A stretch of DNA of 64,000 nt from Actinokineospora auranticolor (GCF_041897805.1 NZ_CP154825.1:4786024-4850023), one strand, 5' to 3'; numbered from the stretch's first letter, positions 8,274 through 58,558 are shown. Notes: generated by a model from the letters alone, not told the origin. A program made the numbers and translations.

Positions 8274-8295
8274 GACCGGCTCGTGCTCCACGCGC

Positions 8296-9530: not shown

Positions 9531-9555
9531 CGCGTCCTCCCGTCTTCGTGGCGCA

Positions 9556-17282: not shown

Positions 17283-17393
17283 TTTCGCCGGTCGCATAGT
17301 TGACCGGTCGCGACGGGCTGAAACAGGATGGGACCACTTCGCAGCACCGCGTCGAATGCGGTGTGCCTCCCCATTCGCACGCTTGGAGCGCGC

Positions 17394-30991: not shown

Positions 30992-30997
30992 CGGGTG

Positions 30998-33004
30998 CTA
31001 CAGGCTCGCGGCGAGGGCGGCCACCGGCTTGTCCGCCACCCCTAACCGCTGCGCGTGCCCGAGCAGCTCCCGGAGCTTGCCGGACTCGCCGCCGTCCGAG
31101 TTGATCATCTTGAGCAGCAGCGCCGACACGGTCAGGTTCTTCACGTCCTCGCTGCCGAGCGAGCCGAGCAGGCCGCGCAGGTCGTCGGTGAAGCTCGACG
31201 AACCGTCCAGCCACGGCCGGGCCAGCGTGCGCGCCGTCTCCGAGTGGTCCAGGAAGCCGTCGACGCTCTTGCCGAGCGACACCGCGCCGACGATCTTGTC
31301 GAAGAACATCGACTCGCCGCCGACGATGTCGATGTCGGCCTTCTCCAGCCCGGCGGCCAGCACCATCGCCTGCGCCTCGGCGACCTCGCGCTGCACGTCG
31401 ATCCCGCGCAGCCGCACCGAGGTGTCCGCCTCCAGCCGGAGCCGGTACTCCTCGTGCTCGCGGGTCGCGTCGTCCATCGCGGCGAGCGCGCCCGCCTTCT
31501 CTGACAGGCCCTCGGCCTCGCCCTTGAGCTTCTCCCGGATCGCGGCGGCCTCGACCATCGCCTTCTCGCGGGCGACAGCGGCCTCCGCGCGACCCACCTT
31601 CTCGATCGCGGCGGCGTCGCGCTCGCGCACCTGCACCTCGGCGAGCCCGGTCGCGGCGGCCCGGGCCTGCTCGCCCTCGGCGAGCCGGATCTGCGCGCGG
31701 GTGTCCAGCTCGGCGGCCTGCTGGCGGGCCTCGGCGAGCACGATCTCCTCGCGGGCCTTGTGCTTGGCGGCGGCCTCGGCCGCCTCCGCGGCCTTGATGT
31801 CCTTGACCAGGTTCTCCTGCGCGGCGGCCTCGGCGGCGATCACCAGCGCCTGGCGCCCGCGCTCGGCCTCCTCGACCGCGCGCAGCCGCTTGATGTTCTC
31901 CTCCTGCTCGGCCACCGTCCGGTCGACCGCGATCCGCTCCCGGACGACCTCGGCGACGGCGCGCTTCTCGCCCTCGACCTCCTTGTCCTTGGCGATCCGC
32001 GACAGCTCGGTCTCGCGCTCGCGGGAGATGACCTCCAGCAGCCGGTCCTTCTCGATCCGCTCGGTCTCGATCGCGATGACCCGCTCGCGGTTCTTCTGCG
32101 CGACGGCGATCTCGCGGGCCTGGTTCTCCGCCTGGATGCCGAGCGACTCGTCGGTGCGCAGGTTCGCGCCCTGGGCCTTGAGCCGCTCCTCGGCCTGCAC
32201 CTTCTGCGTCTCGGCCTCTTCCCGGGCGCGCATGGTGTCGATCTCGCGGCGCTGCTTGATCTCCGCGTCCGCCTGCCTGCGCTCGAGTTCGAGGATGGCC
32301 TCCCGGGCGTCGACGTTCTGCCGGGTGATCTCCTTCTCCTCGTTGCGCCGGTACTCGTTGGTGCGCACGTGCTCGACCGCGGTGAGTTCGGTGATCTTGC
32401 GGATGCCCTGGGCGTCGAGGATGTTCGCCGCGTCCAGCTGCGCCATCGGCGTCTGCTCCAGGTAGTCGATCGCCGCGTCCTCCAGGCTGTAGCCGTTGAG
32501 GTCGGTGCCGATCACCCGGATGATCTGGTCGCGGAACTCGTCGCGCTTGGTGTAGAGGTCGACGAAGTCCAGGTGCTTGCCGACGGTCTTGAGCGCCTCG
32601 GAGAACTTCGCGTTGAACAGCACCTGCAACGTCTGCTCGTCGCTGGCCCGCGCGGTGCCGATCGCCTGCGCCACCTTGATGACGTCCTCGACGGTCTTGT
32701 TGACCCGCACGAAGAACGTGATCCGGATGTCGGCGCGGATGTTGTCCCGGCAGATCAGCCCCTCGGTGCCCGCCCGGTTGATCTCGATGGTCTTCACCGA
32801 GATGTCCATGACCTCGGCCTTGTGCAGCACCGGGAGCACGACCGCGCCGGTGAAGGTCACGTCGACCTTCTTCACCTTCGACACGATCAGCGCCTTGCCC
32901 TGGTCGACCTTGCGGAACAGCCTGCCGATCAGGAACAGCAGGACGATGACGACGAGGAGGATGACGCCGAGCAGCACACCCAGCCCGGTGGAGATGACGT
33001 CCAT
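30998..33004 (-). CDS. Flotillin-family SPFH/band-7 protein (YqiK/FloT-like)
   Basis: N-terminal TM, then SPFH domain (…EINRAGTEGLICRDNIRADIRITFFVRV…). Long EA-rich coiled coil. 668 aa. Confidence 0.85.
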   Translation of the reverse strand: MDVISTGLGVLLGVILLVVIVLLFLIGRLFRKVDQGKALIVSKVKKVDVTFTGAVVLPVLHKAEVMDISVKTIEINRAGTEGLICRDNIRADIRITFFVRVNKTVEDVIKVAQAIGTARASDEQTLQVLFNAKFSEALKTVGKHLDFVDLYTKRDEFRDQIIRVIGTDLNGYSLEDAAIDYLEQTPMAQLDAANILDAQGIRKITELTAVEHVRTNEYRRNEEKEITRQNVDAREAILELERRQADAEIKQRREIDTMRAREEAETQKVQAEERLKAQGANLRTDESLGIQAENQAREIAVAQKNRERVIAIETERIEKDRLLEVISRERETELSRIAKDKEVEGEKRAVAEVVRERIAVDRTVAEQEENIKRLRAVEEAERGRQALVIAAEAAAQENLVKDIKAAEAAEAAAKHKAREEIVLAEARQQAAELDTRAQIRLAEGEQARAAATGLAEVQVRERDAAAIEKVGRAEAAVAREKAMVEAAAIREKLKGEAEGLSEKAGALAAMDDATREHEEYRLRLEADTSVRLRGIDVQREVAEAQAMVLAAGLEKADIDIVGGESMFFDKIVGAVSLGKSVDGFLDHSETARTLARPWLDGSSSFTDDLRGLLGSLGSEDVKNLTVSALLLKMINSDGGESGKLRELLGHAQRLGVADKPVAALAASL

Positions 33005-33008
33005 GCTT

Positions 33009-33635
33009 CTAGTCCCTTGGCCGTGGTTGGTCGCGGGGGTCCGCGAGGGGGGTCAGGTCGACCGGGGTGATCCAGAAGAACTCGCCCACCGGGTCGTAGT
33101 CGTGGATGACGGCGGTGCTGCCCGCCCGCAGCGGCTCCACTCCGGGCTGCCGGACCTGGATGACGGCGGAGGACCCGTCGACCGAGGTCACCTCGGCCTG
33201 CCCGAAGGTCCGGTCCACCGACCCGGTGCGCACGACGCACACCAGCCCGACGAAGTCCGCCCGCTTGGGCCCGGCGTCCTCCGGGAACGCCTTCCGCAAC
33301 GGGATGACGACAAGCCTGGTGACCAGCAGCGCGACCACCAGCACGACGACCAGGGCCACCGCGCGGGCGATGACCAGGAGGGCGCCCGCGAGGCCGAGGT
33401 CGTCGAGGAGCACGCCGGAGACCAGCGCGAGGAACCAGGCCACGACCGTCACCACGGACACGGCGACGGTCAGCGGCACGCCGCCCAGCCCGATGCCGTC
33501 GGGGTCCGGGGCACCGGGAAGGTCTATCTCGGACAGCCCGACGAGCACCAGCAGCCAGTAGCCGACGACCACGACGAGCAGGAAGCTGAACAGCACGGCC
33601 GGGAAGCTCAACGCCGCCCCGACGAACTCACCCAT
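33009..33635 (-). CDS. NfeD/YqiJ-like membrane protein (flotillin partner)
   Basis: Three or four TM helices, then a C-terminal OB-fold-like soluble domain (…GQAEVTSVDGSSAVIQVRQ…VIHDYDPVGEFFWITP). Strong RBS GAGGAGG. Lies immediately upstream of flotillin, as in the yqiJ–yqiK / nfeD–floT pair. Confidence 0.7.
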   Translation of the reverse strand: MGEFVGAALSFPAVLFSFLLVVVVGYWLLVLVGLSEIDLPGAPDPDGIGLGGVPLTVAVSVVTVVAWFLALVSGVLLDDLGLAGALLVIARAVALVVVLVVALLVTRLVVIPLRKAFPEDAGPKRADFVGLVCVVRTGSVDRTFGQAEVTSVDGSSAVIQVRQPGVEPLRAGSTAVIHDYDPVGEFFWITPVDLTPLADPRDQPRPRD

Positions 33636-34184: not shown

Positions 34185-35423
34185 CTACTCGGCGGCGGCC
34201 GCGGCCGTCCGCGGCCGGTGCACCGGGGCGGGCGGGTCGGTCGGCAGGTCGAGGAGGCGCAGGAGCGGGCCCGCCATGGCGGTGGTGACGATGGCCATCA
34301 CCACCATGACCGAGTACAGGCGCTGGTCCAGCATCCCCAGTCGCAGCCCGACGGACAGGATGATCAGTTCGGTCAGGCCCCGGGTGTTCATCAGCACCCC
34401 GAGCCCGGCGGCCTCCCTGGTCGGCATGCCGTTGAGCCGCGCGGCGGCGAAGGCACCGCCCAGTTTCCCGGTGACGGCGGCCACGAGGACCAGCGCCAGC
34501 TCCAGCACGCCGGTGGCGCCGATGGCCGACAGGTCCACCTTGAGCCCCGCCACGATGAAGAACACCGGCAGCAACAACGTCCCGTTGAACAGGTCGATCC
34601 GCTCGACCACCGACTCGCGCAGCCTGCTGGTCCCCTCGTGCGGGACCACCACGCCGAACAGGAACGCGCCGAAGATGAAGTGCAGGCCGATCCACTCCGT
34701 GGCGGCGCCGGAGAGCAGCAGACCCGCGATCAGGATCGACAGGGCCACCGAGGTCGGCACGCGGTCGGTGAGCACCTTGCGCAGCAGTGGGCGGACCAGC
34801 CAGAGCATCACCACGAGGTAGGCCGGACCCCAGAGGAACAACCACTGTCCACCGCCGCCGGAAACCAGGACGACGACGGCGAGCAGGCACCAGGCGAGCA
34901 GGTCGCCCGCCGCGGCGCACACCAGGGCGATGCCGCCCACGGGGGTCCTCGACAGGCCGCGGTCGGCGAGGATCCGGGCCAGCACGGGGAACGCCGTCAC
35001 CGACATCGCCGCGCCGATGAACAGGACGAACCCGAGCCGGTGCGGCGCCGTGTGGTTGCCCACGAGGTACAGGGCCAGCAGCGCGCCCAGCGCGAACGGC
35101 AGCGCGATCGAGGCGAGGGACACCGCGGTCGCGAGTTTCCCCTTGCCGCGCAACAGGGCGCGGTCCAGCTCGACGCCGATGCCGAACATGAACACCGCCA
35201 CGCCCACGTTGGCCAGGGTGGACAGCAGTGGGCGGACGTCGGCGGGGAACAGCACGTCGGTCACGCCGGTGCCGAGCAGGCTCGGGCCGATCAGCACACC
35301 GGCCAGGATCTCGCCGATGACCGCGGGTTGCCCCAGGCGCCGGGCGAGGGCGCCGACCAGGCGGGCGAGCGCGACGACGACGGCCAGGTCCAAGAACAGG
35401 AAGACGGTCTGATGCGTGGTCAT
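34185..35423 (-). CDS. Cation:proton antiporter (CPA2/Kef-type)
   Basis: 12–13 TM helices. Na_H_Exchanger-like motifs (AGVLIGPSLLG, FLFGVVVP). ATG at 35423 with GGGGAG RBS is preferred over the upstream GTG at 35453. Confidence 0.8.
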   Translation of the reverse strand: MTTHQTVFLFLDLAVVVALARLVGALARRLGQPAVIGEILAGVLIGPSLLGTGVTDVLFPADVRPLLSTLANVGVAVFMFGIGVELDRALLRGKGKLATAVSLASIALPFALGALLALYLVGNHTAPHRLGFVLFIGAAMSVTAFPVLARILADRGLSRTPVGGIALVCAAAGDLLAWCLLAVVVLVSGGGGQWLFLWGPAYLVVMLWLVRPLLRKVLTDRVPTSVALSILIAGLLLSGAATEWIGLHFIFGAFLFGVVVPHEGTSRLRESVVERIDLFNGTLLLPVFFIVAGLKVDLSAIGATGVLELALVLVAAVTGKLGGAFAAARLNGMPTREAAGLGVLMNTRGLTELIILSVGLRLGMLDQRLYSVMVVMAIVTTAMAGPLLRLLDLPTDPPAPVHRPRTAAAAAE

Positions 35424-35470
35424 GATCTCCCCCAGGGATCTCTCCCCGGACACGATGGCAGACGCGGGTG

Positions 35471-35508
35471 CCCCGCGGTACGACGATGCCGTCGTACCGC
35501 GGGGTTTT
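35471..35508 (+). terminator. Perfect 15-bp stem / 4-nt loop hairpin followed by TTTT
   Basis: CCCCGCGGTACGACG-ATGC-CGTCGTACCGCGGGG-TTTT. Lies between the end of the flavoprotein operon and the start of the antiporter gene, both on the minus strand. Confidence 0.4.
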
Positions 35509-35530
35509 CCGTGCGAACGTCAGGCGGGCG

Positions 35531-38500
35531 TCAGGACGACGGCGACTCCGCGGCGGCGCGGGCCGCCGGGTGCGTGTCGGCCAGCGGCGGCAGCGCGTAC
35601 GCGTGCAGCCTGCCCGCCTGGATCACGACCCGGATCCACTCGTCGGAGTGGTCGCGGATCAGCAGCGACGCCCGGTGCTCGCGGGTCGCGGCCAACGCCC
35701 GGCGGTCCGCGGGTGGCATCGGGCTGAACTCCGACTCGCTGTGCCGGATCCAGGCCTGGGTGTCGGCCTTGATCCCGTCGGCGAGGTCGCGCAGCGCCTG
35801 CTCGTGGGTCACCCCCGACTCGCGGGCCCGCCAGTACCGCAGCACGCGGTGGGCGTGGCCGACCATGCCGGTGGTGACACCGCCGCTGGTGAGCACGTGC
35901 CCGTTGCCGAAGGAGTCGCCCGCGACCACGGCGTTGGCCGCGACCACCGCGTCCGAGCCGATCCGCTCCACGAGGCGGAACAGCTTTGGCCCGTAGGTGA
36001 GCTGGATCTTGGCCAGCTCGGCCTTGGGGATCTCCAGCAGGTGCGCGGTCTGCTCCAGGAAGAAGTCCCGCATCAGCAGCTGGTGGGCGGCGAAGTACTT
36101 CGCGGTGTCCTTGGCGGTGCCCTCCGGCACCAGCCCCGCGAGCACCGGGTCGAAGGTCTTGAACTCCGGCACCTCGATCAGCACCCAGCCGACCTCGGCG
36201 TCGTCCTCGTGCCCGATCGCGATCTGGCGCGTGGTGTAGGCGGTGCCGTTGCGGTCGAACTCGGTGGACACCCGCCTGCGCACCCGGCTGTCGATGAACA
36301 CCTCGATCAGCCCGGCCAGGTAGTCCGCCTGCGCGGGCACCGGGCCGTTGCCGTCGCCGTGGTCGACGCGGACGTCGCGCTGGGTGAACCCGAGCCTGCG
36401 CGCGTCGGCGCCGGACTGGCCCTCGGCGATCACGATCAGACCGGGCACGCCCAGGTCGACGATCTCGGCGTTGTCCACCGCGACGCGGCGGAACTTGCCC
36501 TTGTGGTCGAGGCTGCGCACCATCTCCAGGCGCACCCGCAGCCTGCCGTCGGGCTGCCGCTCGAACCCGGTGGCGCCCTTGGCCGCGCGCCGCGGTTCGG
36601 TGAGCACGCGGTGGCTGGTGAACAGCCGCACGCGGGGCTCGCGGCCGGACGCGAGGTCCATGGCCTCCACGGCCTCCAGGTACCGGCGCAGGATCACCAG
36701 CACCTCCTCGGCGCCCGCGAGGAACGTCGGCCGGTCCGCCAGCACCTCGGCGAGGTCGCGGCCGAGCCGCGACGGGTCCGGGCCGGTGGGCGGCGTCATG
36801 CCGCCCAGGTCGGCGACGACCCGGTGCGGCCTGCCGTCGAGCCAGCGGTCGTCGACGTGCTCCTCGTGCAAGACCACGCCGCCGACGTGCGACTCCAGGT
36901 CGAACCCGCTGACCACCTCGTCGGCGGAGGCGTCGCCCGCCTCGGTCTCGGTGCTGTAGAGGCACTCCGCGAGCCGGAACAGGCTGCCGTCGCCGCGCTT
37001 GGGCACGCCGTCGGCGCCGTAGCGCTCCAGCATCAGCTGGTCGATGACGCCGAGGTGGTGGTAGATGTCGGCGTTGAGGTTCCAGTGCATGACCCCGTAC
37101 GACGGGTCGCCGCGCAGCTCGACACCGACGGCCCGCTTGCCCTCCGCGACCGACCACAGCATGCCCATCATCCCGGTGCCGCCGAGCCCGAGGGCCAGGT
37201 AGTCCGGGTCGCGCACGCCCGCGAGGTTGTGGTCGTGCGCGTCGACCGCGGTGTCGTCCAGGGACTTCGGCGCCGTCTTCGGCACCGCGGGCTGCACGAC
37301 GGTCATGCCCAGCACGGCGGCGACCAGCACGATCCCGGCCCCGACGAGGAACGCCAGCCGGTAGCCGGAGGTCAGCGCCTCCAGCGCGGGCACGCCGTCC
37401 GCCAGCGCGTCGCCGGTGCGCGCGCTGGACATCGCGGCCAGCACGGCCAGGCCGAGCGCGGGGCCCATCTGCTGGGTCGTGTTGACCAGACCGGAGCGCA
37501 CACCCGCGTCGCTGGTGGTGGCGTCGGCCATGGCGACCGTGATCACGGCGGGGAAGCACAGACCCGCGCCGGTGCCGAGCAGCAGCATCACCGGCAGCAC
37601 GTCCACCAGGTAGTCCCCGTCGACCGGGACCCTGGCGAACAGCGCCAGGCCCGCGACCATGAGGAGCATGCCCGGCACCAGCACGGCCTTGGCGTCGACC
37701 TTGTCCACCAGCTTCGGCGTGACCTTCAGCGACAGCGTCGCGATGGCCGCCGCGGCGGGCAGGAACGCCAGCCCGACCTCGGCGACGCTGAACCGCAGCA
37801 CGTTCTGCATGTACAGCGCGCCGAGGAAGAAGACCCCGGCGAACCCGGCCACCATCAGCGTCTGCACCAGGTTCGCCCAGCCGACGTTGCGGGCGCGGAA
37901 GATGCCCAGGGGCACCAACGGGTCCCGGGCCCGCGCCTGGTGCGCGACGAAGCCGAGCACCAGCGCGGTGGACACCGCGCACAGCACGATCGTGCGCGTC
38001 GAGCCCCAGCCGGTCTCCCCGGCCTGCACGATCGTGTAGACCCACAGCGACAGGCCCAGGGTGATCAGCAGACCGCCCAGCACGTCCGAGGTCTGCGCGT
38101 CGGTGTCGGCGGTGTTCTCGTCGAGCAGCCGCAGCGCCGCGACGATGGTCGCCGCGCCGAGGGGCAGGTTGACGAAGAAGATCCAGTGCCAGTTGATCGC
38201 CTCGGTGAGCGCGGCACCGGCCAGCAGGCCGAGCGAGGCGCCCGCCGCGGCCACGAAGGAGTAGACGCCGACCGCGCGGGCCTGCTCCCTCGGGCGGGGG
38301 AACATCGTCACGATCATGCCGAGCACCACCGCCGAGGCGGCGGCCCCGCCGATGCCCTGCGCGGCCCGGGCCGCGATCAGCACGGCCTGGCTGTTCGCCA
38401 GCCCGCAGGCCAGCGACGCGACCGTGAACACGGCCAATCCGCTGATGAACAGGCGTTTGCGACCTAAGAGGTCACCGAGTCGACCCGCCAGCAGCAGCAA

Positions 38501-38718
38501 CCCGCCGAAGGGGATCAGGTAGGCGTTGATCACCCACGCCAGGTCGGTCTGGGCGAACCCGAGGTCGGTCTGGATGGACGGCAGCGCGACGTTCACCACG
38601 GAACCGTCGAGGATGATCATCAGGGTGCCCGCGCAGAGCACGACGAGCGCCAACTGGCGCTCGCGCAGGCCGCGCAGCACGGGGACGGGCCGCAGCGCGG
38701 CCCCGGTCATCGCGTCCA
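35531..38718 (-). CDS. Apparent fusion: DHA2-type MFS transporter (N-terminal ~480 aa) plus FAD-dependent oxidoreductase domain (C-terminal ~590 aa)
   Basis: MFS signature LCAGTLMIILDGSVVNVALPSIQTDLGF with 14 predicted TM helices. It runs in frame, with no stop, into RDPDYLALGLGGTGMMGMLW (FAD GxGxxG)…AGDSFGNGHVLTSGG. The start overlaps the upstream paralog's stop (TGATG / GTGA). Confidence 0.6.
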
Positions 38719-40860
38719 TCACGCCCCCGCGTTCAGCGCCGGGGCGGCCAGGTCCGCCTGGCCGTTGCCGGTGGTCATCCCGGCCTCGTCCGCCATCACG
38801 TCCGAGGACTCCCCGGCCACCTCCCCCGACCCGCGCAGCGCGGGGTGGACCTGGCTGAGCGGGGGCAGCGACAGCGCGTGCGTGCGGCCGCTGCGGATCA
38901 CCAGGCGCCGCCAGTCCGACGGGTCGAGCGGCACCAGCGAGTGCCGGTGCCTGCGGGTGGCGTCGATCGTGTTCGCGCGGGCCTCGGTGGACTTGCCGCT
39001 GGCCGCGGAGATCCGCTCGATCCGCTCGGCGCCGAAGTTGATCGGCACGGCCTGGCTGAACTCCTGGGCGCTGACGTGCAGCCACCCGTCGGTGTCCGCC
39101 TTGATGCCGTCGGCCAACCCGCGCACCGCGGTCGGCTGGTCGGCGCCCGCCGCCCGGGCCTCCCAGTAGCGCAGCACCCGGGCGCCGTGGCCGACCATGC
39201 CGGTGATGGCGCCGCCGCTGGTCAGGAAGTGGCCGTTGCCGAAGGAGTCGCCCGCGACGACGCCGTTGGCCGCCACCAGCGCGTCCGCGCCGACCTGCTC
39301 GACCAGGCTGAACAGCTTGGGGCCGTAGGGGATCTGCACCGACTCCAGTTCCTCGCGCGGGATCTCCACGATGTGCGAGACCTGCTCGAGGTAGAAGTCG
39401 CGCAGCAGGTACTGGTACGCGGCGAAGTACTCCGGCGCCTTGCGGTCGGTGCCCGGGGGCACCAGTCCGGCCAGGATCGGGTCGAAGGTCTTGAAGTCGG
39501 GTACCTGCACCAGGATCCAGCCCACCTCGGGGTCGTCCTGGTGGCCCACGGCGATCTGCCGCACCCAGTACTCGTTGCCCTGCTTGTCGAACTCCGACGC
39601 GATGCGCCTGCGCAGCCGCCCGTCGACCAGGACCTCCATCAGCCCGGCCAGGTAGTCGGCCTGGGCCACCACGGGGCCGCGGCCGTCCTGGTGGTCCACC
39701 TTGACCTCCTCCTGGCGGAAGCCGAGGCGGGTGGCGTCGGTGCTGTCGAAGCCCTGCGCGATCATGAACAGCTCGGGCACGCCGAGGTCGAGCACCTCGG
39801 TGCCGGGCACCCGCACGCGGCGGAACTTGCCCTTGTAGTCCAGCTCGCGGATCTGCTCGATCCGCACGCCCATCCGGCCGTCGCGCTGCGGCGTGAAGCC
39901 CTCGTCGCGGCGCAGCCAGTTCAGGTAGCCGCCGTCGTCGTTCGGCGTCACCACGCGGTGGCTGGTGAACAACCGGACCCGGGGCCGCGCGCCGCGCTCG
40001 AGGTCCATCCGCTCGATCGCCTCGAGGTAGCGGCGCTGGAGGATGAGCACCTCGGAGGCGCCCGCCTGGAACGTGGAGGGTCCGTCGAGGACCTCCACCA
40101 TCGGCCTGCCGATCTTGGACGGGTCGTGGTCGGTCGGCGGCAGCGCGGAGTCCACGACGGTCACCACGCGCTGCGGTCGGCCGTCGGCCCAGCGGTCGTC
40201 GATGAACTCGGTGTGGTGGATGATGCCGGACACGTGCGCGTCCTCGCCGATGTGCGAGTCGAGGAAGCCGGTGACGACCTCGTCCGCGGCGACCGCGCCC
40301 GCGGCGGTGTCGGGGTGGTAGAAGCACTCGGCGAGCAGGAACGGGGTGCCGTTGCCGCGCTTGGGCACGCCGTCGGCGCCGTAGCGCTCCAGCATCATCT
40401 GGTCGATCAGTCCGAAGTGGTGGTACAGGTCCTCGCGGATGTTCCAGTGCACGCCGAGCGACGGGTCGCCGCGCATCTCCACGCCGACCGCGCGCTTGCC
40501 CATGGCGACCGTCCACAGCATCGCCATCATGTTGGTGCCGCCCAGGCCGAGCGCGAGGAAGTCCGGGTCGCGGACCAGCGCGGCGTCGGCGGCGTCCGCG
40601 GCGGCGGAGTTGTCCACGGTGGTGCCGTCCAGGTCACCGGGCACCGGGGCGGCCGAACGGGCCAGCTGGACGAGGAAAGCCGCGATCAGGGCGGCGAAGG
40701 CGGTACAGGCCCCGATGAGCAGCGCGGTGCGGGCGGTGCCCGCTTGCACAAGACCCGCGGCCCCAAGAGCGACAGCAACGGAGGCGAGCGCCCCCAGTAC
40801 CGCCTTGCGCGCGGGCGTGGCCCACGCGCGTCTCCAAGCAGGCCTTGCGGACTTGGCCAT
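38719..40860 (-). CDS. Membrane-anchored FAD-dependent oxidoreductase (paralog of the C-terminal half of the downstream gene)
   Basis: 713 aa. N-terminal hydrophobic helices (TALLIGACTAFAALIAAFLV), then RDPDFLALGLGGTNMMAMLW…AGDSFGNGHFLTSGG. About 70% identical to the downstream flavoprotein domain across its length. Confidence 0.7.
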   Translation of the reverse strand: MAKSARPAWRRAWATPARKAVLGALASVAVALGAAGLVQAGTARTALLIGACTAFAALIAAFLVQLARSAAPVPGDLDGTTVDNSAAADAADAALVRDPDFLALGLGGTNMMAMLWTVAMGKRAVGVEMRGDPSLGVHWNIREDLYHHFGLIDQMMLERYGADGVPKRGNGTPFLLAECFYHPDTAAGAVAADEVVTGFLDSHIGEDAHVSGIIHHTEFIDDRWADGRPQRVVTVVDSALPPTDHDPSKIGRPMVEVLDGPSTFQAGASEVLILQRRYLEAIERMDLERGARPRVRLFTSHRVVTPNDDGGYLNWLRRDEGFTPQRDGRMGVRIEQIRELDYKGKFRRVRVPGTEVLDLGVPELFMIAQGFDSTDATRLGFRQEEVKVDHQDGRGPVVAQADYLAGLMEVLVDGRLRRRIASEFDKQGNEYWVRQIAVGHQDDPEVGWILVQVPDFKTFDPILAGLVPPGTDRKAPEYFAAYQYLLRDFYLEQVSHIVEIPREELESVQIPYGPKLFSLVEQVGADALVAANGVVAGDSFGNGHFLTSGGAITGMVGHGARVLRYWEARAAGADQPTAVRGLADGIKADTDGWLHVSAQEFSQAVPINFGAERIERISAASGKSTEARANTIDATRRHRHSLVPLDPSDWRRLVIRSGRTHALSLPPLSQVHPALRGSGEVAGESSDVMADEAGMTTGNGQADLAAPALNAGA

Positions 40861-41462: not shown

Positions 41463-42428
41463 ATGACTGAAGCTCGCTTCGCGGAAAAGACCACGCCGTA
41501 CCTGCTGGAACTGGCCGAGCGCAGCGACGCCGTCCGCAAGATGTACGTCTACGACCCGGCGCACGAGGACATCCCCGCCGACATCGAACGGGACCTGCTC
41601 AGCGAGAAGGCCAACACCGCCGTGCCCGGCGGGGTGCGCAAGTTCGACGGACGCCTGCTGGTACTGCTCTCGTACACCTGCGGCGCCAACTGCCGCTACT
41701 GCGAGCGGCAGGACCGGGTCGGCGTCGGCCTCGACCGCCTGGGGCGGTTGGGGACCGCGCAGATCGACACCATCGTCGACTACGTCAAGCAGGACGGCGA
41801 GCTGCACGACATCATCGCCAGCGGCGGCGACCCGCTGATCAACCCCAAGGGGTTGGAGTACCTGTTCACCTCGCTGGCCGAGGTCGAGCACGTCAAGGTC
41901 ATGCGGATCCACACCAGGTTCCCGGTGCAGTCCCCGGGCCAGGTCAACCTCGACCTCATGCGCAAGCTGGCCACCTTGCGGCCGACGATGTACCTGAGCC
42001 TGCACATCTCCCACCCGGACGAGCTGACGCCCGAGGTGGAGGACCTGATCGCCCAGTTCCGCGCGATGGGCTACCTCCTCATCTGCCAGAGCGTGTTCCT
42101 CAAGGGCGTCAACGACGACGTCGAGGTCCTGTACCGCCTCTACACCAGGCTGTTCCAGCTGGGGGTGCGGCCGTACTACCTCTACCACTGCCAGCGCATC
42201 CCGACCACGGCCCGGTTCGAGATGGACCTGCGCGACGAGGTGGCGATCATGTCGCGGCTGCGCGAGCGGCTCGACGGCCTCGCCTTCCCGCAGCACGTCA
42301 TCGACATGCCCGCCGCGCGCGGCAAGGTGCTGGTCCCGACGAACCACTGGGACTTCGACCTGGGGCACGTCACCGACTTCGACGGGCTGACCCTCAGCAC
42401 GGAGACCTGGAAGGCGCGCGAGGACTGA
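41463..42428 (+). CDS. KamA-family radical SAM protein (lysine 2,3-aminomutase-like)
   Basis: Radical-SAM CxxxCxxC motif LLSYTCGANCRYCER. KamA-type ASGGDPL motif and C-terminal Zn-binding region. Start at MTEARFAEKTTPYLL. Confidence 0.85.
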   Translation: MTEARFAEKTTPYLLELAERSDAVRKMYVYDPAHEDIPADIERDLLSEKANTAVPGGVRKFDGRLLVLLSYTCGANCRYCERQDRVGVGLDRLGRLGTAQIDTIVDYVKQDGELHDIIASGGDPLINPKGLEYLFTSLAEVEHVKVMRIHTRFPVQSPGQVNLDLMRKLATLRPTMYLSLHISHPDELTPEVEDLIAQFRAMGYLLICQSVFLKGVNDDVEVLYRLYTRLFQLGVRPYYLYHCQRIPTTARFEMDLRDEVAIMSRLRERLDGLAFPQHVIDMPAARGKVLVPTNHWDFDLGHVTDFDGLTLSTETWKARED

Positions 42429-42463
42429 GCGGTGGGCGGAAGGGGGAGCGGGGTGGGAGACCG

Positions 42464-43936
42464 GTGAGCGCGGAGAACCCGCACGAGAGCGGGATTCGGG
42501 ACGGGGGTGTCCACATGAGCGGTGTCCACAAGGGCAAGGACGTCCGCACCGGCGCACATCCCCGCGAGGGCAAGGTGAACGGTGCTCACGTAGGTGCCGG
42601 GCGCGTGGGTGACGTGCACGTCGGCAACGTGGTCGAGTTCCACGACGCGATGCTGCCCGAAGGGGTACCGGACGACGTCCGCGCGGACGTCGCCGCCGGG
42701 GACCTGGGCTACGCCTGCCTGGCGCCGTTCCACTCCCCCGACCCCGGGTTGGTCCTGGTGCCGGAGTTCGACGGCGAACCGTGGTGGGAGCGCCAGGTGG
42801 CGCTGCTGGGGTGGGACCGGTTCGAGCCGGTCACCGTGCCGGGGCCGCTGGGGCCGGGGTTCGCCGCGCTGGGCGCGGACCCGGTGCTGTCCGCGCGGGT
42901 GCGCGCGGCGGTCGACGCGGGCGCGCGGCTCATCCCGTGGGGCGAGAGCGCGCCGTACCGGGAGTACGCGCGGGACCTGCCGGAAGCCGCCGCGGTGCGG
43001 TCCACCGACGCCGCGTTACCCGCGTTCGCCGAGTCCAAGGCCTCCAGCCCCGAGCTGTTCGCCAAGGCGCACAACGCGCTGGACTCCCCCGACGGGATCC
43101 ACCTGACCGGGGAGCGGCTCTGCGAGTCCGAACCGGACCTGGTCGCGACCCTGGTCGACGCGGGCGCGCGCGGCCGGACCGTGGTCCTCAAGGCGCCGTT
43201 CGGCGTCGGCGGCTACGGCACGGCCGTGCTGTCCCCGCACCGGACGTCGACCCGCCGCGCGGTGCTCGAAACGCTGGCGCGCCTGCGCGAAGACGACACG
43301 TTCCACAACGGACTGCCCACGATCGTGCAGGACTACCAGTGGCGTTCCGACCTCCCATGGTCGGATGTCAGCGGCGACTGCACCATCGACCACCTGGGAC
43401 GGGTGCGCCTGGAGGGCGTGACGGCCATGGCGATGAACGGCACCCAGTTCGCGGGCGGGGTCACCGACGACGGCGTGGTGATCGCGCCCGCGCGCTCGGC
43501 GTTGCTGTCCGCGTTCTGCGTCGCGGTCGGCGAGCAGCTCGCGCTGGTGGGCTACCGCGGGTGGTTCGACATCGACTTCCTCGTGCGGCCGACCGGTGAG
43601 CTGGTGCCGCTGGAGATCAACGCCCGGCGCACCGGCACCACCGCGCCGCTCAGCGTCCAGACCTGCCTGCGCGCGCGGCGCGGCCGGGACGTGACGGTCA
43701 TCAGCCGGGACGTGATCGCGCTGCCGAGCCGCCACGCCTCCCGGCCCGCCTTCGCCCGCTTCGCCCGCGCGGTCGAGCTGGCCGGGCTGGCCGCGGACGT
43801 GGTGCCCACGCTCGTCGCGGGCACCGACGCGGCCCTGCCGCACCTGGGTGTCGTCGTGGCCGCCGACGACGCGGCCGACGCGGTGCGCAAGCTCGCGCAC
43901 TGCGTGGACGCGCTGGTCACGGAGTTCCGGAGTTGA
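42464..43936 (+). CDS. ATP-grasp domain protein (candidate amino-acid/β-lysine ligase)
   Basis: ATP-grasp segments RTVVLKAPFGVGGYGTAVL and GYRGWFDIDFLVRPTGELVPLEINARRTG. N-terminus carries short VH.G-type repeats. Confidence 0.75.
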   Translation: MSAENPHESGIRDGGVHMSGVHKGKDVRTGAHPREGKVNGAHVGAGRVGDVHVGNVVEFHDAMLPEGVPDDVRADVAAGDLGYACLAPFHSPDPGLVLVPEFDGEPWWERQVALLGWDRFEPVTVPGPLGPGFAALGADPVLSARVRAAVDAGARLIPWGESAPYREYARDLPEAAAVRSTDAALPAFAESKASSPELFAKAHNALDSPDGIHLTGERLCESEPDLVATLVDAGARGRTVVLKAPFGVGGYGTAVLSPHRTSTRRAVLETLARLREDDTFHNGLPTIVQDYQWRSDLPWSDVSGDCTIDHLGRVRLEGVTAMAMNGTQFAGGVTDDGVVIAPARSALLSAFCVAVGEQLALVGYRGWFDIDFLVRPTGELVPLEINARRTGTTAPLSVQTCLRARRGRDVTVISRDVIALPSRHASRPAFARFARAVELAGLAADVVPTLVAGTDAALPHLGVVVAADDAADAVRKLAHCVDALVTEFRS

Positions 43937-43985
43937 CCGCGCCGGGAGCGCGGGACGTGGGTTTGACGAGTCGACAGGAGAACCG

Positions 43986-45251
43986 ATGAGCCGACTGGCA
44001 CTGCACGGCGGACCCCGGGTCCGCGCGGACAAGCGCTGGGCGCGCTGGCCCCAGTACGACACCGCGACCGAGCAGGAGGTGGTCGCCGCGCTGCGCTCGG
44101 GCCGCTGGGCGATCAGCTGGCCAAGCGACGGCACCACGGCCCGCGAGCGGCGCTTCGCCGAGGACTGGGCCCGCTACAACGACGTCCCCCACTGCGTCAG
44201 CGTCGACCACGGCTCCAGCGCGCTGCTGGTGGCGTTGGAGGCGCTGGACATCGGGCCCGGCGACGAGGTCATCGTGCCCACCATGACCTGGGTCGCGCCG
44301 GTGACCGCGGTGCTGCGCGTCGGCGCGCTGCCGGTGCTGGCCGACGTCGACCCGGTGACCGGGTGCGTCACGCCGGAGACCATCGCCGCCTGCCGGTCCG
44401 GGCGCACGAAGGCGATCATCGTCGTGCACCTCGGCGCGACCGTCGCCGACCTGGACGGGATCCTCGCGGTGGCCGGTGACGTCCCGGTCGTCGAGGACTG
44501 CGCCCAGGCGCACGGCGCGCGCTGGCGGGGCCGCAACGTCGGCACGTACGGCGCGCTCGGGGTGTTCAGCTTCCAGAACGGCAAGGTGCTGGCCGCGGGC
44601 GAGGGCGGCGCCGTGATCACCTCGGACCCGGTGCTGTACCGGCGGGCCCAGCAGCTGCGCGCCGACTCCCGCCGCTACCCCGACCACCCGGTGCCCGAGG
44701 GCACGATGGAGCTGGTCGAGGACGGCGAGGTCATGGGCGCCAACTACTGCATGTCGGAGCTGTCGGCGGCGGTGCTGCTCGACCAGCTGCCGCGGTTGGA
44801 CACCCAGCACCTGCACCGGGAGAAGATCGCGGGCGAGTTGGAGCGCGGCCTGGCCGAGCTCGGCGGGTTCGGCCCGATCCCGGTGCCCGAGGAGGTCGAC
44901 CGGCGGTCCATCTACGAGTACGGCATCAGCTACGCCGAGGACGCCTTCGGCGGCGCGCCCGCCGAGAAGGTCGCCGAGGCGATCACCGCCGAGCTGGGCT
45001 TCGCGGTCTACCCGCCGGACCCTCCGCTCAACGACAGCGTGATGCTGCGGCCGTTCACCAAGCGCCGCTTCGCGCAGATCTGGTCCGAGGAGGGGCAGCG
45101 GCGGGCGATCGGCCGGGAGTTCCCCGGCGCGGAGCGGTTCCGGCGGTCCGCGCTGCTGTTCCACCACGGCGTGCTGCTGGGCGACAGCGCCGACGCGGCC
45201 GACATCGTGGCCGCGGTCGCCAAGGTCCGCGACCACGCCCACGAGCTGTGA
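43986..45251 (+). CDS. DegT/DnrJ/EryC1/StrS-family PLP-dependent (sugar) aminotransferase
   Basis: ATG after AGGAGAA. CVSVDHGSSALLVALEAL…VIVPTMTWVAP…DCAQAHGAR (PLP-Lys region). 421 aa. Confidence 0.85.
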   Translation: MSRLALHGGPRVRADKRWARWPQYDTATEQEVVAALRSGRWAISWPSDGTTARERRFAEDWARYNDVPHCVSVDHGSSALLVALEALDIGPGDEVIVPTMTWVAPVTAVLRVGALPVLADVDPVTGCVTPETIAACRSGRTKAIIVVHLGATVADLDGILAVAGDVPVVEDCAQAHGARWRGRNVGTYGALGVFSFQNGKVLAAGEGGAVITSDPVLYRRAQQLRADSRRYPDHPVPEGTMELVEDGEVMGANYCMSELSAAVLLDQLPRLDTQHLHREKIAGELERGLAELGGFGPIPVPEEVDRRSIYEYGISYAEDAFGGAPAEKVAEAITAELGFAVYPPDPPLNDSVMLRPFTKRRFAQIWSEEGQRRAIGREFPGAERFRRSALLFHHGVLLGDSADAADIVAAVAKVRDHAHEL

Positions 45252-46519
45252 GCGGGCGCGGCGGTGACCCCGCCGACCTGCACGTGCTGCGGCTGACGCC
45301 GTACTACTACCTGGCCGATCGGCGGCTGGACCACCGCGAGCTGCAGTACGAGCCGATCGGTGGCATGCAGGTGCAGATCATGCAGACCACCGAGCAGGTC
45401 AGCGAACTCGGGGCACGGCAGACCGTGGTGTTCCCCAGGCGGCCGGGGATGCCGCGCTCGGTCGAGGTCGACCCGCGCACCCGGTTCGAGTTGCTGCGCC
45501 TGCCGATCGCGCCGATCCCGACCCGGGCCAAGGGGTACGCGGGGCTGCTGGTGTCGTGGGGCCTGGCGCTCACCGTGTGGTGCCTGCGGCAGCGGGTCCG
45601 GCGCGCGCACCGGCGCTTCTCCGTCATCCACGTGCACTGCAGCGAACTGCCGTGGACGTTCCTGTTCGCGGTGGTCGCCAAGGCGGTGCTGGGCAGACCG
45701 CTGGTGATCACCACGCATTGCAGCGCGATCGCCACCTTCCACCCGGAGAACCTCGTCGGCAGGCTGCTCATCGGCCCGGCAAGGCTGTTCGAGCGGTGGG
45801 CTGTGCGCCGGGCGGACGCCGTCGTCGTGCTGACCGAACGGGTTCGCCGGGTGTACACCGAGTCCGGGCTGACCACGGCGGACCGCGTGCACGTGGTGCC
45901 GGACGGGGTGCGGCTGGACCTGTTCACCCCCGAGCTGACCACCGCCGCGCCCGCGCCCGCCGAGGTGCCCACGGTGCTCTACTGTGGACGGTTCGCCCCG
46001 GAGAAGGGGTGGGCCGACTTCGTGGCCGCGGCCGAGGTGCTGGTCCGGGAGGGCGCGTCCGCGCGGTTCCTGATGTGCGGCGACGGCAACGAGCTGCGGT
46101 ACTGCCGGGCGGAACTGGCCAGGATGGGCATCACCGAGCACGTGGAGCTGTGCGGCCACCTCGACCGGACCGCCGTGGCCGCCGCGATCGGCGCGGCGGA
46201 TGTCGTGGTCATCCCCTCACGGCACGAGGAACTGGGCGGCACCGTGCTGGAGGCGCTGACCGCCCGGCGCGCCGTGGTGGTCACCGACGTCGGTGGACTG
46301 CCGGAGGTGGTCGGGCACGGCGAGGCCGGGCTGGTCGTACCGCCGTGCGACCCGCAGGCGTTGGCCGCGGCGGTGCGCAAACTGCTGGAAGCGCCGGAAC
46401 TGCGAGCCGACTTCGGCGCCGCGGGCGCCCGGCGGGCGGCGGGTTTCGCGCTCGACGCGGTCACCCGCCGCCTCACCGGGGTCTACTCCGGGATCGTCCC
46501 CGCGGCGGTCTCCTCGTGA
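45248..46519 (+). CDS. GT4 (GT-B fold) glycosyltransferase
   Basis: GTGA overlap with the aminotransferase gene. C-terminal GT4 motifs (…VIPSRHEELGGTVLEALTARRAVVVTDVGGLPEVV…). Confidence 0.8.
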   Translation: MSGRGGDPADLHVLRLTPYYYLADRRLDHRELQYEPIGGMQVQIMQTTEQVSELGARQTVVFPRRPGMPRSVEVDPRTRFELLRLPIAPIPTRAKGYAGLLVSWGLALTVWCLRQRVRRAHRRFSVIHVHCSELPWTFLFAVVAKAVLGRPLVITTHCSAIATFHPENLVGRLLIGPARLFERWAVRRADAVVVLTERVRRVYTESGLTTADRVHVVPDGVRLDLFTPELTTAAPAPAEVPTVLYCGRFAPEKGWADFVAAAEVLVREGASARFLMCGDGNELRYCRAELARMGITEHVELCGHLDRTAVAAAIGAADVVVIPSRHEELGGTVLEALTARRAVVVTDVGGLPEVVGHGEAGLVVPPCDPQALAAAVRKLLEAPELRADFGAAGARRAAGFALDAVTRRLTGVYSGIVPAAVSS

Positions 46520-48006: not shown

Positions 48007-48009
48007 CGG

Positions 48010-49878: not shown

Positions 49879-50018
49879 TCGGACCCCCCTCTGCGGAATC
49901 CTTGATCTGGCGCTGCTCCGCGTGGTTTATTAGACGCATCCCGGAAAGCGGTGTCAAGGGTGGCGTCAGGGCAAGGCGGGAACCAGGAGTGCGCTACGCC
50001 CCATTCGGAGGAATCACA

Positions 50019-51164: not shown

Positions 51165-51192
51165 TCACCGAGGTCGAGTCGGAAGGACACGC

Positions 51193-51942: not shown

Positions 51943-51947
51943 CCGGC

Positions 51948-52703: not shown

Positions 52704-52790
52704 GGCTCAGCTCCTCATCCGTCCAGTCATCCCGTCAAGTAAAGCAAGGTGATGATGTATACCGAACAGGCCCACCCGGACGCGCCGGAC

Positions 52791-55884: not shown

Positions 55885-55893
55885 GGGTTCCCG

Positions 55894-58521: not shown

Positions 58522-58558
58522 CCGATCGTCCTGTCTCTACAGTGGGTGGGTACCGGGT

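What the first reader, a model, noticed from the sequence alone, without database searches (positions are those of the whole stretch)
35531..40860. Tandem paralogous membrane flavoproteins; one is in frame with a complete DHA2 MFS transporter
Two ~600-aa FAD-binding domains (GLGGTxMMxMLW…AGDSFGNGHxLTSGG) share about 70% identity. The upstream copy has its own 2-helix N-terminal anchor. The downstream copy has no separate start: its reading frame runs uninterrupted from a 14-TM MFS (DHA2-like) transporter. An MFS–oxidoreductase fusion would couple transport to redox modification of a substrate.
Basis: seen in the sequence. Interest (0 to 1): 0.6.

Follow-up and report, generated by a model that had tools for sequence, protein, structure and literature searches.

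The report
Aminoglycoside exporter fused to flavoprotein-like domain
In a fortimicin-type antibiotic gene cluster, one gene encodes a flavoenzyme-shaped protein and the next encodes a diverged copy of it joined to a drug-efflux pump; the joined gene is real and matches the "putative exporters" of gentamicin, sisomicin and fortimicin producers, but what the flavoenzyme-shaped part does is unknown.

Summary
Gene A (38719-40860, minus strand, 713 aa) and gene B (35531-38719, minus strand, 1062 aa) are tandem and overlap at stop/start. B is one continuous ORF: a 14-helix DHA2 MFS exporter, a roughly 28-residue linker, then a roughly 560-residue domain paralogous to A. Identity is 56%, not 70%.

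The fusion is not an artefact. The coding signal is continuous across the junction, two assemblies encode the identical 1062-aa protein, and 47 database clusters have the same full-length architecture. These include the "putative gentamicin exporter" of M. echinospora, Sis26 of the sisomicin cluster and the fortimicin-cluster protein of M. olivasterospora.

The window is Actinokineospora auranticolor, and the pair sits in a fortimicin-type aminoglycoside cluster. This is a new member of an annotated but uncharacterised exporter pair. "Redox modification coupled to transport" is untested. I favour an accessory, cytoplasm-facing, probably FAD-binding A/B module on the exporter.

The parts
38719..40860 (-). 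Gene A: 713-aa unfused paralogue, the partner subunit. 100% identical to NCBI V5P93_004236 'hypothetical protein' of Actinokineospora auranticolor.
   Evidence: ORF and translation; identity to P0001; GC3 0.96-1.0; 73% identical to the gene upstream of the fused exporter in the M. olivasterospora fortimicin cluster.
40669..40803 (-). N-terminal two-helix membrane anchor of A (residues 20-64), preceded by an Arg/Lys-rich N-terminus.
   Evidence: Hydropathy peaks of 2.24 and 2.53. Among the sampled relatives only the Actinokineospora iranica orthologue P0002 also has the anchor.
38821..40575 (-). Flavoprotein-monooxygenase-fold domain of A (residues ~96-680). Motifs: GLGGTN at 40531-40548, VGVEMRGDP at 40462-40488, IAQG at 39751-39762, AGDSFGNGH at 39229-39255.
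   Evidence: 56% identical to the modelled domain of B; motif coordinates; family conservation.
38719..38722 (-). Stop/start overlap between A and B (GTGATG: A's TGA shares its A with ATG 38719; the alternative GTG 38722 gives a 4-nt overlap). This is a translational-coupling arrangement.
   Evidence: Sequence. The same 4-nt overlap occurs in Micromonospora sp. NPDC023956, M. olivasterospora, M. inyonensis and Actinoalloteichus hoggarensis.
35531..38719 (-). Gene B: 1062-aa fusion protein, in NCBI as PPK65020.1 / WP_342752302.1 'EmrB/QacA subfamily drug resistance transporter'.
   Evidence: full-length homologues.
37298..38668 (-). DHA2-type MFS transporter part of B (residues 18-474, 14 transmembrane helices).
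   Evidence: TIGR00711 2e-70 and above its cutoff; MFS_1 2.7e-53. The full-length AlphaFold model has 14 helices. Hydropathy and Lys/Arg distribution place the N-terminus inside the cell.
37214..37297 (-). Linker between helix 14 and the soluble domain (residues 475-502). No stop codon and no credible internal start.
   Evidence: pLDDT below 50 for residues 483-493; no ribosome-binding-site-like sequence ahead of in-frame GTG/ATG codons; continuous GC3.
35549..37213 (-). Flavoprotein-monooxygenase-fold domain of B (residues 503-1057). Motifs: GLGGTG at 37172-37189, VGVELRGDP at 37103-37129, IAEG at 36419-36430, AGDSFGNGH at 35897-35923.
35471..35504 (-). Perfect 15-bp GC-rich hairpin 27 nt after B's stop codon. 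Probably the 3' end of the A-B transcript.
   Evidence: Fold of -48 kcal/mol, z = -2.8 against shuffles; sequence. The terminator function is inferred; there is no T-run.
34185..35423 (-). Na+/H+-exchanger-family (Pfam PF00999) membrane protein directly downstream. Possibly a third member of the export module.
   Evidence: Pfam 7e-51. A gene of the same family lies next to the A-B pair in M. olivasterospora and near it in M. inyonensis. It is absent from the other loci examined.

Best explanation
Genes A and B are the export module of a fortimicin-type aminoglycoside biosynthetic gene cluster in Actinokineospora auranticolor.

Shown:
- B is a single polypeptide: a 14-helix DHA2 drug/H+ antiporter whose C-terminus continues, through a flexible linker of about 28 residues, into a domain of about 560 residues.
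- That domain has the fold of group A (p-hydroxybenzoate-hydroxylase-type) flavoprotein monooxygenases.
- A is an older, more conserved, unfused paralogue of that domain, and its stop codon overlaps B's start codon.
- The A-B pair recurs in several aminoglycoside-type clusters.

Inferred:
- Both flavoprotein-like domains face the cytoplasm. A 14-helix MFS with its N-terminus inside ends inside, and A's two-helix anchor returns the chain to the inside.
- Both probably still bind FAD.
- A and the C-terminal domain of B probably associate as a heterodimer, which puts the conserved A subunit on the cytoplasmic mouth of the pump.

My committed reading is that the transporter part exports the cluster's polycationic product by proton antiport. 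The A/B flavoprotein module is an accessory subunit of the pump that gates, regulates or hands over substrate. It acts on or senses a ligand common to the whole family. It is not a pathway-specific tailoring enzyme.
For: The fusion is real:
- Continuous coding signal across the junction.
- The identical 1062-aa product on two assemblies.
- 47 full-length fused clusters and 6 representative clusters reaching down to 40% identity.

Exporter identity:
- TIGR00711 above its cutoff.
- 54% identity over 98% of the length to the M. echinospora 'putative gentamicin exporter' CAF31450/AGB13922 and to M. inyonensis Sis26 ACN38360.
- 57% identity to the fortimicin-cluster protein P0122.
- The literature lists GtmK/GenV/GntO, Sis26 and Sis27 as transporters (PMC6100412, PMC6804068).

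Cluster context:
- DegT is 71%, GT4 70%, rSAM-SPASM 65%, TylF methyltransferase 78% and Zn-ADH 63% identical to the M. olivasterospora fortimicin cluster.
- The window also carries inositol monophosphatase, an inositol-dehydrogenase-type enzyme, a PIG-L deacetylase, a GMC oxidoreductase and a B12-radical-SAM enzyme.
- A-B pairs in A. hoggarensis and Frankia also sit in aminoglycoside-like clusters.

Fold:
- pLDDT 88.5.
- 667 Foldseek hits at E<=1e-3.

Cofactor motifs:
- G23 is 100% conserved, and G25 is G or S.
- E/D46 at the end of β2 is 100% conserved, and R48 is 100% conserved.
- G446-D447 are conserved in 112 of 113 sequences.

A-B complex:
- Overlapping stop/start in five genomes.
- At least 18 A/B pairs sit on contigs of the same length.
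- A is soluble in most genomes.

Accessory rather than tailoring role:
- A is 65-67% identical to ATP-grasp- and FHA-fused relatives in unrelated organisms, against 66-73% to its orthologues.
- B is relaxed. It has 109 columns conserved at >=95% against 196 in unfused members. Mean pairwise identity is 54% against 72%. His453 is kept in 64/65 unfused but only 20/48 fused sequences.
Against: - No experiment exists for any member, and I found no paper that mentions the C-terminal domain.
- FAD binding is not shown. The third glycine of GxGxxG is usually Asn, and the 'DG' motif is Glu/Gln-Gly. No flavoprotein HMM or profile matches.
- The A-B interaction was not modelled.
- The full-length model gives no confident orientation between the domains (pTM 0.60).
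- In the Frankia locus no A gene lies within 10 kb of B.
- Retention of all the core motifs in both copies fits a working enzyme as well as it fits a sensor.
Confidence: 0.45

Rival explanations
1. Catalysis-coupled export. A/B is an active FAD- and NAD(P)H-dependent monooxygenase or oxidoreductase that chemically modifies the aminoglycoside, or a masked precursor, at the cytoplasmic mouth of the pump. Modification and efflux are therefore coupled.
For: - The Rossmann glycine motif, the β2 acid and the GD motif are conserved in both copies.
- Very strong conservation of many charged residues in A suggests a defined active site.
- The pair sits inside biosynthetic clusters.
Against: - Gentamicin/sisomicin-type and fortimicin-type clusters make different products but carry partners about 66-73% identical. 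Relatives outside such clusters are equally similar at 65-67%. That argues against a product-specific substrate.
- The copy physically attached to the pump is the degenerating one, having lost 39 positions that are >=95% conserved elsewhere.
- From my own knowledge of these pathways, not from any call here, no unassigned flavin-monooxygenase step is required for fortimicin or gentamicin.
Confidence: 0.25
2. Cofactor-less pseudoenzyme scaffold. The fold is retained but FAD is not bound, as in Rab GDP-dissociation inhibitor, which has a related fold (my own knowledge). The domains serve only as a docking or substrate-binding platform.
For: - No flavoprotein sequence model detects the family, even at E<=10.
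- The third Gly of GxGxxG is Asn in most members, and the DG motif is altered.
- The fused copy shows relaxed constraint.
Against: G23, E/D46, R48 and G446-D447 are essentially invariant across 113 sequences from two phyla. That is hard to explain if no dinucleotide is bound.
Confidence: 0.15
3. Functionally unrelated neighbours joined by accident. The flavoprotein pair serves another process and merely happens to be fused to, or sit beside, an efflux pump.
For: - Unfused family members occur in unrelated contexts. These include a Ser/Thr kinase neighbour in Dictyobacter, an amino-acid-derived cluster in Nonomuraea and no clear context for the ATP-grasp fusion.
Against: - The fusion has persisted down to 40% identity in 47 clusters.
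- B-type domains were never seen unfused in the sample apart from one erroneous old record.
- The A-B stop/start overlap is conserved.
Confidence: 0.1
4. Assembly or frameshift artefact: MFS and flavoprotein are really two genes.
For: The 2004 GenBank record AJ628421 annotates two ORFs, CAF31534 (503 aa) and CAF31535 (620 aa).
Against: - Three modern M. olivasterospora contigs give one 1132-aa protein, and the old record also differs internally (VPPPWRRV against VPRRGDGV), which is typical of paired frameshift errors.
- In this window GC3 is continuous.
- Two assemblies agree.
- 47 independent fused clusters exist.
Confidence: 0.02

Closest known systems
GenV / GtmK / GntO 'putative gentamicin exporter' of Micromonospora echinospora (CAF31450, AGB13922), and Sis26 (ACN38360) with Sis27 (ACN38361) of the sisomicin cluster of M. 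inyonensis
   Same: Same full-length architecture, DHA2 MFS plus C-terminal domain: 54% identity over 98% of B. The same unfused paralogue lies immediately upstream with overlapping stop/start. Both sit inside an aminoglycoside cluster.
   Different: The genus and the cluster type differ: this one is fortimicin-like, not gentamicin/sisomicin-like. The partner here carries a two-helix membrane anchor that the Micromonospora partners lack. None of these proteins has been characterised. In the papers I could search they are called simply transporters, or in Sis27's case an 'FHA-domain containing' protein.
Fortimicin-cluster proteins of Micromonospora olivasterospora: CAF31534 + CAF31535 'putative component in exporter complex' (one 1132-aa protein, WP_145774063, in genome assemblies) and the 668-aa gene upstream
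   Same: B is 57% identical and A 73% identical. A Na+/H+-exchanger-family gene is adjacent. The flanking biosynthetic genes are 63-78% identical.
   Different: Gene order around the module differs. The 2004 record splits the fusion into two ORFs, which looks like a sequencing error.
Group A flavoprotein monooxygenases (PHBH, UbiH/UbiI, PhzS, PqsL, HspB, squalene epoxidase; Pfam FAD_binding_3)
   Different: - Sequence identity is only 11-16%, and no HMM or profile match exists.
- The domain is about 170 residues longer than PHBH.
- The third glycine is Asn, and the DG motif is E/Q-G.
- The domain is fused to or paired with a transporter.
- No activity is known.
EmrB/QacA (DHA2) drug:H+ antiporters
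   Same: TIGR00711 match above its cutoff, 14 helices, and the cytoplasmic loop motif GRLGDLLGRKR between helices 2 and 3.
   Different: Canonical members are about 480-520 residues long and end after helix 14. This one carries an extra soluble domain of about 560 residues.
KefC/KefF and KefB/KefG (K+ efflux systems activated by an ancillary flavoprotein). This is an analogy from my own knowledge, not tested here.
   Same: A cytoplasmic flavoprotein acts as an accessory subunit of a membrane transport protein. Here a cation/proton-antiporter-family (Pfam Na_H_Exchanger) gene also sits next to the pair.
   Different: KefF has a flavodoxin-like quinone-reductase fold, is not fused, and the transporter is not an MFS. 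There is no homology.

Membership tests
DHA2 (EmrB/QacA) MFS efflux transporters | Match to the family HMM above its curated cutoff | tested here: met
   TIGR00711 scores 237.9 bits against a cutoff of 230.2, E 2e-70, over residues 24-434. Pfam MFS_1 scores 181.6 bits.
DHA2 (EmrB/QacA) MFS efflux transporters | 14 transmembrane helices | tested here: met
   The AlphaFold full-length model has 14 helices between residues 18 and 474. Hydropathy gives 13 strong segments plus one weaker segment around 409-433.
DHA2 (EmrB/QacA) MFS efflux transporters | Proton-coupled drug efflux activity | not testable with these tools
   Needs transport or resistance assays.
Group A flavoprotein monooxygenases (PHBH fold) | Three-dimensional fold | tested here: met
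Group A flavoprotein monooxygenases (PHBH fold) | Sequence-model membership (Pfam FAD_binding_3 or related) | tested here: not met
   None of 68 members gives a flavoprotein Pfam hit at E<=10. The family profile against PDB sequences finds nothing relevant. hhalign against PHBH (1PBE, sequence verified) gives probability 0.16.
Group A flavoprotein monooxygenases (PHBH fold) | GxGxxG dinucleotide-binding loop plus an acidic residue at the end of β2 | tested here: inconclusive
   G23 is 100% conserved. G25 is 100% in unfused and 38/48 in fused members (Ser otherwise). The third position is Asn in 88/113, though Gly in this window's B. E/D46 is 100% conserved. Placement on β1-loop-αA and on β2 comes from the model's secondary structure.
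Group A flavoprotein monooxygenases (PHBH fold) | DG motif (FAD/NAD(P)H) | tested here: not met
   The equivalent position reads E/Q278-G279 (IAEG in B, IAQG in A). Gly is conserved but Asp is never present. The equivalence is assigned by position in the model, not by a structural alignment.
Group A flavoprotein monooxygenases (PHBH fold) | GD motif (ribityl/pyrophosphate contact) | tested here: met
   G446-D447 are conserved in 112/113 sequences, within AGDSFGNGH. The equivalence is assigned by position in the model.
Group A flavoprotein monooxygenases (PHBH fold) | Bound FAD and NAD(P)H-dependent oxygenation | not testable with these tools
   Needs purified protein.
GenV/Sis26-type aminoglycoside-cluster exporter with Sis27-type partner | Full-length homology to the named cluster proteins | tested here: met
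   B against P0304 (M. echinospora) and P0303 (M. inyonensis): 54% identity, 98% coverage. The names were confirmed. A against the partner genes: 66-73%.
GenV/Sis26-type aminoglycoside-cluster exporter with Sis27-type partner | Unfused paralogue directly upstream with overlapping stop/start | tested here: met
   Window; L002, L082, L083 and L087.
GenV/Sis26-type aminoglycoside-cluster exporter with Sis27-type partner | Location in an aminoglycoside biosynthetic cluster | tested here: met
   The window at 41.4-58.5 kb carries GT4, DegT, PIG-L, GMC, B12-rSAM, rSAM-SPASM, Zn-ADH, inositol monophosphatase and inositol-dehydrogenase-type genes. They are 63-78% identical to fortimicin-cluster genes.

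The most novel reading that the evidence does not exclude
The A/B pair is an active flavoenzyme that is mechanistically coupled to an MFS pump. It would be an enzyme-coupled secondary transporter in which a flavin-dependent reaction unmasks the substrate, gates its release by redox state, or supplies energy. That could be what allows a highly polycationic aminoglycoside to leave the cell against the membrane potential. It would be a new class of transport machinery, shared by gentamicin, sisomicin, fortimicin and probably istamycin producers.
Probability: 0.15. Interest if true: 0.8.

Novelty: new member of a known kind. Interest (0 to 1): 0.5.

Why it matters
Gentamicin-class aminoglycosides are clinically important, yet how their producers export them is essentially unstudied. 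The "putative exporter" has been annotated in these clusters since 2004. More than half of it is an unannotated domain, and it has an obligatory-looking paralogous partner.

Three points turn a vague annotation into testable hypotheses: flavin content, an A-B complex, and truncation phenotypes.
- Both proteins have a flavoprotein-monooxygenase fold.
- The core dinucleotide-binding residues are conserved.
- The architecture recurs in 47 protein clusters, and in every genomic locus examined it lies in an aminoglycoside-type gene cluster.

The pair could also serve as a genome-mining marker for fortimicin/gentamicin-type clusters. The domain family has no Pfam model, and many members are misnamed "FHA domain-containing protein". 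Defining it would correct annotation across Actinomycetes and Chloroflexi.

Tried and rejected
- Pfam, NCBIfam and PDB-sequence searches with the domain, and with a 68-sequence profile, gave no flavoprotein match.
- The only PDB-sequence hit was hexokinase-2 'DFLALDLGGTN', E 0.35. I rejected it as chance because the predicted fold is not actin-like.
- hhalign of the family against PHBH found nothing, probability 0.16.
- I tested whether the ATP-grasp-like 490-aa neighbour (42464-43936) is the same ATP-grasp domain that is fused to family members elsewhere. It is not (E 0.12).
- L048, which looked like a second genomic fusion in the locus table, is two adjacent MFS genes.
- The genome scan with the full fusion was swamped by MFS-only hits and gave only one true fusion, L002.
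- The afdb50 fold library was unavailable.
- The look-up of P0038 returned nothing.
- Literature searches for 'component in exporter complex', genH/genI, genV, and MFS plus flavin monooxygenase fusions found no study of the domain. Two reviews only list the genes as transporters.
- I checked for an internal translation start that would make the domain a separate product. No plausible ribosome-binding site was found.
- The contexts of the FHA- and ATP-grasp-fused relatives gave no consistent functional clue.

Full report
WHAT IS THERE. The region holds two adjacent minus-strand genes in a 72% G+C genome. Gene A is 38719-40860 (713 aa). Gene B is 35531-38719 (1062 aa).

The mechanical ORF list shows a 1661-aa ORF reaching 40516. 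Its first 599 codons run through gene A in another frame and carry no coding signal. Third-position GC switches frame exactly at about 38720, then stays at 0.97-1.0 in B's frame until the stop. B starts at ATG 38719, or at GTG 38722. Either way it overlaps A's TGA (GTGATG).

The window is Actinokineospora auranticolor. A is 100% identical to V5P93_004236. A 22-kb locus from the draft assembly PTIX01000016 matches the window with 0 mismatches. The exact 1062-aa B product is on record from two contigs, one of 8.49 Mb, as PPK65020.1 / WP_342752302.1 'EmrB/QacA subfamily drug resistance transporter'.

CHECK OF THE OBSERVATION.
- B residues 1-~480 are a DHA2 MFS transporter: TIGR00711 scores 237.9 bits against a cutoff of 230.2, and MFS_1 gives 2.7e-53.
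- The full-length AlphaFold model has 14 helices. Hydropathy gives 13 strong segments and one weaker one. Lys/Arg-rich odd loops place the N-terminus in the cytoplasm.
- After helix 14 comes a low-confidence linker (pLDDT <50 for 483-493). Then comes a domain that aligns with A over 640 residues at 56% identity and 68% positives.
- No stop codon, frame change or plausible internal start lies at the junction.
- A has two N-terminal hydrophobic helices, at 20-38 and 46-64.
- The quoted motifs exist at the coordinates given in the parts list.

IS THE FUSION REAL AND CONSERVED? Yes.
- A search with the whole protein found 47 clusters (at 90% identity) that cover 93-100% of B at lengths of 1032-1225 aa. 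One of the 47, P0075, is cut by its contig end.
- An exhaustive scan of 1.84 billion representatives found six full-length clusters at 63, 48, 48, 44, 42 and 40% identity.
- Named members are the 'putative (gentamicin) exporter' of Micromonospora echinospora (CAF31450, AGB13922) and the 'putative sisomicin exporter' of M. inyonensis (ACN38360, also called Sis26).
- In M. olivasterospora, the fortimicin producer, three modern contigs encode one 1132-aa protein. The 2004 record AJ628421 split the same sequence into CAF31534 (503 aa) and CAF31535 (620 aa), both named 'putative component in exporter complex'. That record also differs internally in a way typical of paired frameshift errors.

THE PARTNER GENE. 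An unfused paralogue lies directly upstream of the fused gene with a 4-nt stop/start overlap in four other genomes: Micromonospora sp. NPDC023956, M. olivasterospora, M. inyonensis (Sis27) and Actinoalloteichus hoggarensis. At least 18 further A/B pairs in the two homologue lists sit on contigs of identical length.

In a neighbour-joining tree all unfused members form one clade. These comprise partners, other stand-alone forms, ATP-grasp fusions and FHA fusions. The fused domains have long branches outside that clade.

The partner is the conserved copy. A is 73, 66 and 73% identical to its orthologues, where B is 57, 54 and 56% identical to its own. Mean pairwise identity is 72% for partners against 54% for fused domains. 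Unfused members have 196 columns conserved at >=95%, against 109 in fused members. Thirty-nine positions that are near-invariant in unfused members are lost in fused ones, including the His that follows the GD motif.

The two-helix anchor of A is an Actinokineospora peculiarity. Partners elsewhere are soluble. In the Frankia locus no partner lies within 10 kb.

WHAT THE DOMAIN IS. No sequence model recognises it. An AlphaFold2 model built from a 68-sequence alignment is confident (pLDDT 88.5, pTM 0.91).
- Foldseek against the PDB gives 667 hits at E<=1e-3, led by group A flavoprotein monooxygenases at about 3e-13.
- I read the family alignment against the model's secondary structure. Strand β1 is followed by G23-x-G25-x-x-(N/G/S). 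Strand β2 ends in an invariant acid (E/D46) followed by invariant R48. G446-D447 are invariant in 112/113 sequences.
- The position that should carry the 'DG' motif reads E/Q-G.

So the fold is that of a flavin monooxygenase and most of the dinucleotide-binding signature is retained. Membership at sequence level fails, and FAD binding remains an inference.

CONTEXT. Upstream of A, on the other strand, begins an aminoglycoside cluster. It encodes:
- a radical-SAM enzyme and an ATP-grasp-like protein;
- a DegT aminotransferase and a GT4 glycosyltransferase;
- a GMC oxidoreductase;
- a B12-radical-SAM enzyme and a radical-SAM/SPASM enzyme;
- a TylF-type methyltransferase, a PIG-L deacetylase and a Zn-ADH;
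- a class-III aminotransferase, an inositol monophosphatase and a GFO/IDH-type dehydrogenase.

Five of these are 63-78% identical to genes of the M. olivasterospora fortimicin cluster. The A-B pairs in A. hoggarensis and Frankia also lie in aminoglycoside-like clusters.

A Na+/H+-exchanger-family gene follows B here (34185-35423), separated from it by a strong hairpin. Such a gene is also next to the pair in M. olivasterospora and near it in M. inyonensis, but not in the other loci.

Other unfused family members occur outside such clusters. One is fused to FHA beside a Ser/Thr kinase in Dictyobacter. Others are fused to an ATP-grasp domain. One is stand-alone in a Nonomuraea cluster with an aminotransferase, a decarboxylase, two ATP-grasp enzymes and an MFS.

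HOW IT MOST LIKELY WORKS. The shown facts are the single-chain architecture, its conservation, the predicted fold, the tandem arrangement with a conserved partner, and the aminoglycoside-cluster setting.

Topology is inferred. A 14-helix MFS with its N-terminus inside puts its C-terminus, and hence B's soluble domain, in the cytoplasm. A's anchor (N-in, two helices) does the same. A cytoplasmic location is the right compartment for a flavin- and nicotinamide-dependent protein.

An A:B heterodimer is also inferred. The evidence is the stop/start overlap suggesting translational coupling, the strict co-occurrence, the soluble partners, and one conserved copy beside one relaxed copy.

I commit, at moderate confidence (0.45), to an accessory role for this probably FAD-binding module on a proton-coupled aminoglycoside exporter. 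The partner is almost equally similar to relatives in organisms without aminoglycoside clusters (65-67%) and to its orthologues (66-73%). Its ligand is therefore probably common to the whole family and not a particular antibiotic.

A cofactor-less scaffold (0.15), an accidental association (0.1) and an artefact (0.02) are less likely.

COMPARISON WITH WHAT IS KNOWN, AND NOVELTY. The object is an orthologue of proteins deposited since 2004 and listed in reviews as transporters of the gentamicin, sisomicin, fortimicin and istamycin clusters (PMC6100412, PMC6804068). In the searchable literature I found nothing on the C-terminal domain, its fold or the A/B relationship. That library misses most subscription journals, including the original cluster papers and book chapters.

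I therefore class this as a new member of a known but uncharacterised kind. What this analysis adds is the fold assignment, the conserved pairing with asymmetric divergence, and the correction of the split fortimicin record. I score interest at 0.5. It is unusual for an MFS pump and directly testable, but it is not a surprise at the level of a new system.

Noticed in passing
window 41463-58536 (both strands): A complete-looking fortimicin-type aminoglycoside biosynthetic cluster in Actinokineospora auranticolor. It carries DegT, GT4, GMC, B12-rSAM, rSAM-SPASM, TylF methyltransferase, PIG-L, Zn-ADH, an aminotransferase, inositol monophosphatase and a GFO/IDH dehydrogenase. Five of these genes are 63-78% identical to the M. 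olivasterospora fortimicin cluster. I did not identify a 16S rRNA methyltransferase resistance gene among the ORFs scanned.
   Followed up: partly
window 41463-42428 (+) and 42464-43936 (+): A 321-aa radical-SAM protein (CxxxCxxC) and a 490-aa protein with no Pfam match and only a weak, non-significant ATP-grasp-like resemblance (E 0.12) lie divergently next to gene A. Neither has a tblastn match (E<=1e-10) in the fortimicin, sisomicin, A. hoggarensis or Frankia loci examined. They may mark a chemical difference of this cluster's product.
   Followed up: partly
window 35471-35504 (-): A perfect 15-bp GC-rich hairpin (the surrounding 94-nt stretch, 35440-35533, folds at -48 kcal/mol, z -2.8) lies between the stop of B and the Na+/H+-exchanger-family gene. 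It has no T-run. It is probably a transcript end or a processing/stability element.
   Followed up: partly
window 26108-33635 (-): Three co-directional genes lie just beyond the exchanger gene. One is a roughly 1627-aa protein with DUF3686, DUF7902 and weak AAA hits. One is a 668-aa charged, coiled-coil-like protein with an N-terminal hydrophobic helix and no Pfam match. One is a 208-aa membrane protein. Their function is unknown, and I did not look for the same trio elsewhere.
   Followed up: no
L082 10001-13399 (M. olivasterospora), compared with GenBank AJ628421 proteins CAF31534/CAF31535: The reference fortimicin cluster record splits the fused exporter into two ORFs and carries an internal frameshift pair (VPPPWRRV instead of VPRRGDGV). 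Three genome assemblies give a single 1132-aa protein. Resources built on AJ628421 (a reference-cluster database such as MIBiG would be one, though I did not check it) would inherit the error.
   Followed up: yes
Proteins P0002, P0013, P0019, P0039, P0044, P0065: Many unfused family members of 580-700 aa are named 'FHA domain-containing protein' in NCBI/UniProt but have no FHA domain. Only the 740-790-aa forms do (12 of the 68 scanned). The name has evidently spread from the FHA-fused subgroup.
   Followed up: partly
L002 (Micromonospora sp. NPDC023956) and cluster of P0304: This strain carries two different fused exporters: a 1133-aa one in the gentamicin-exporter cluster and a 1119-aa one with its own partner next to a DAO-type oxidase and GNAT acetyltransferases. 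One genome can therefore hold two such modules.
   Followed up: no
L086 (Nonomuraea jiangxiensis) 6442-17749: A stand-alone family member is embedded between a class-III aminotransferase and a PLP decarboxylase (14-nt overlap with the decarboxylase). Next to them are an OvoA-like sulfoxide-synthase/methyltransferase fusion, a class-V aminotransferase, two ATP-grasp enzymes and an MFS. This is a possible clue to the ancestral chemistry of the family.
   Followed up: no
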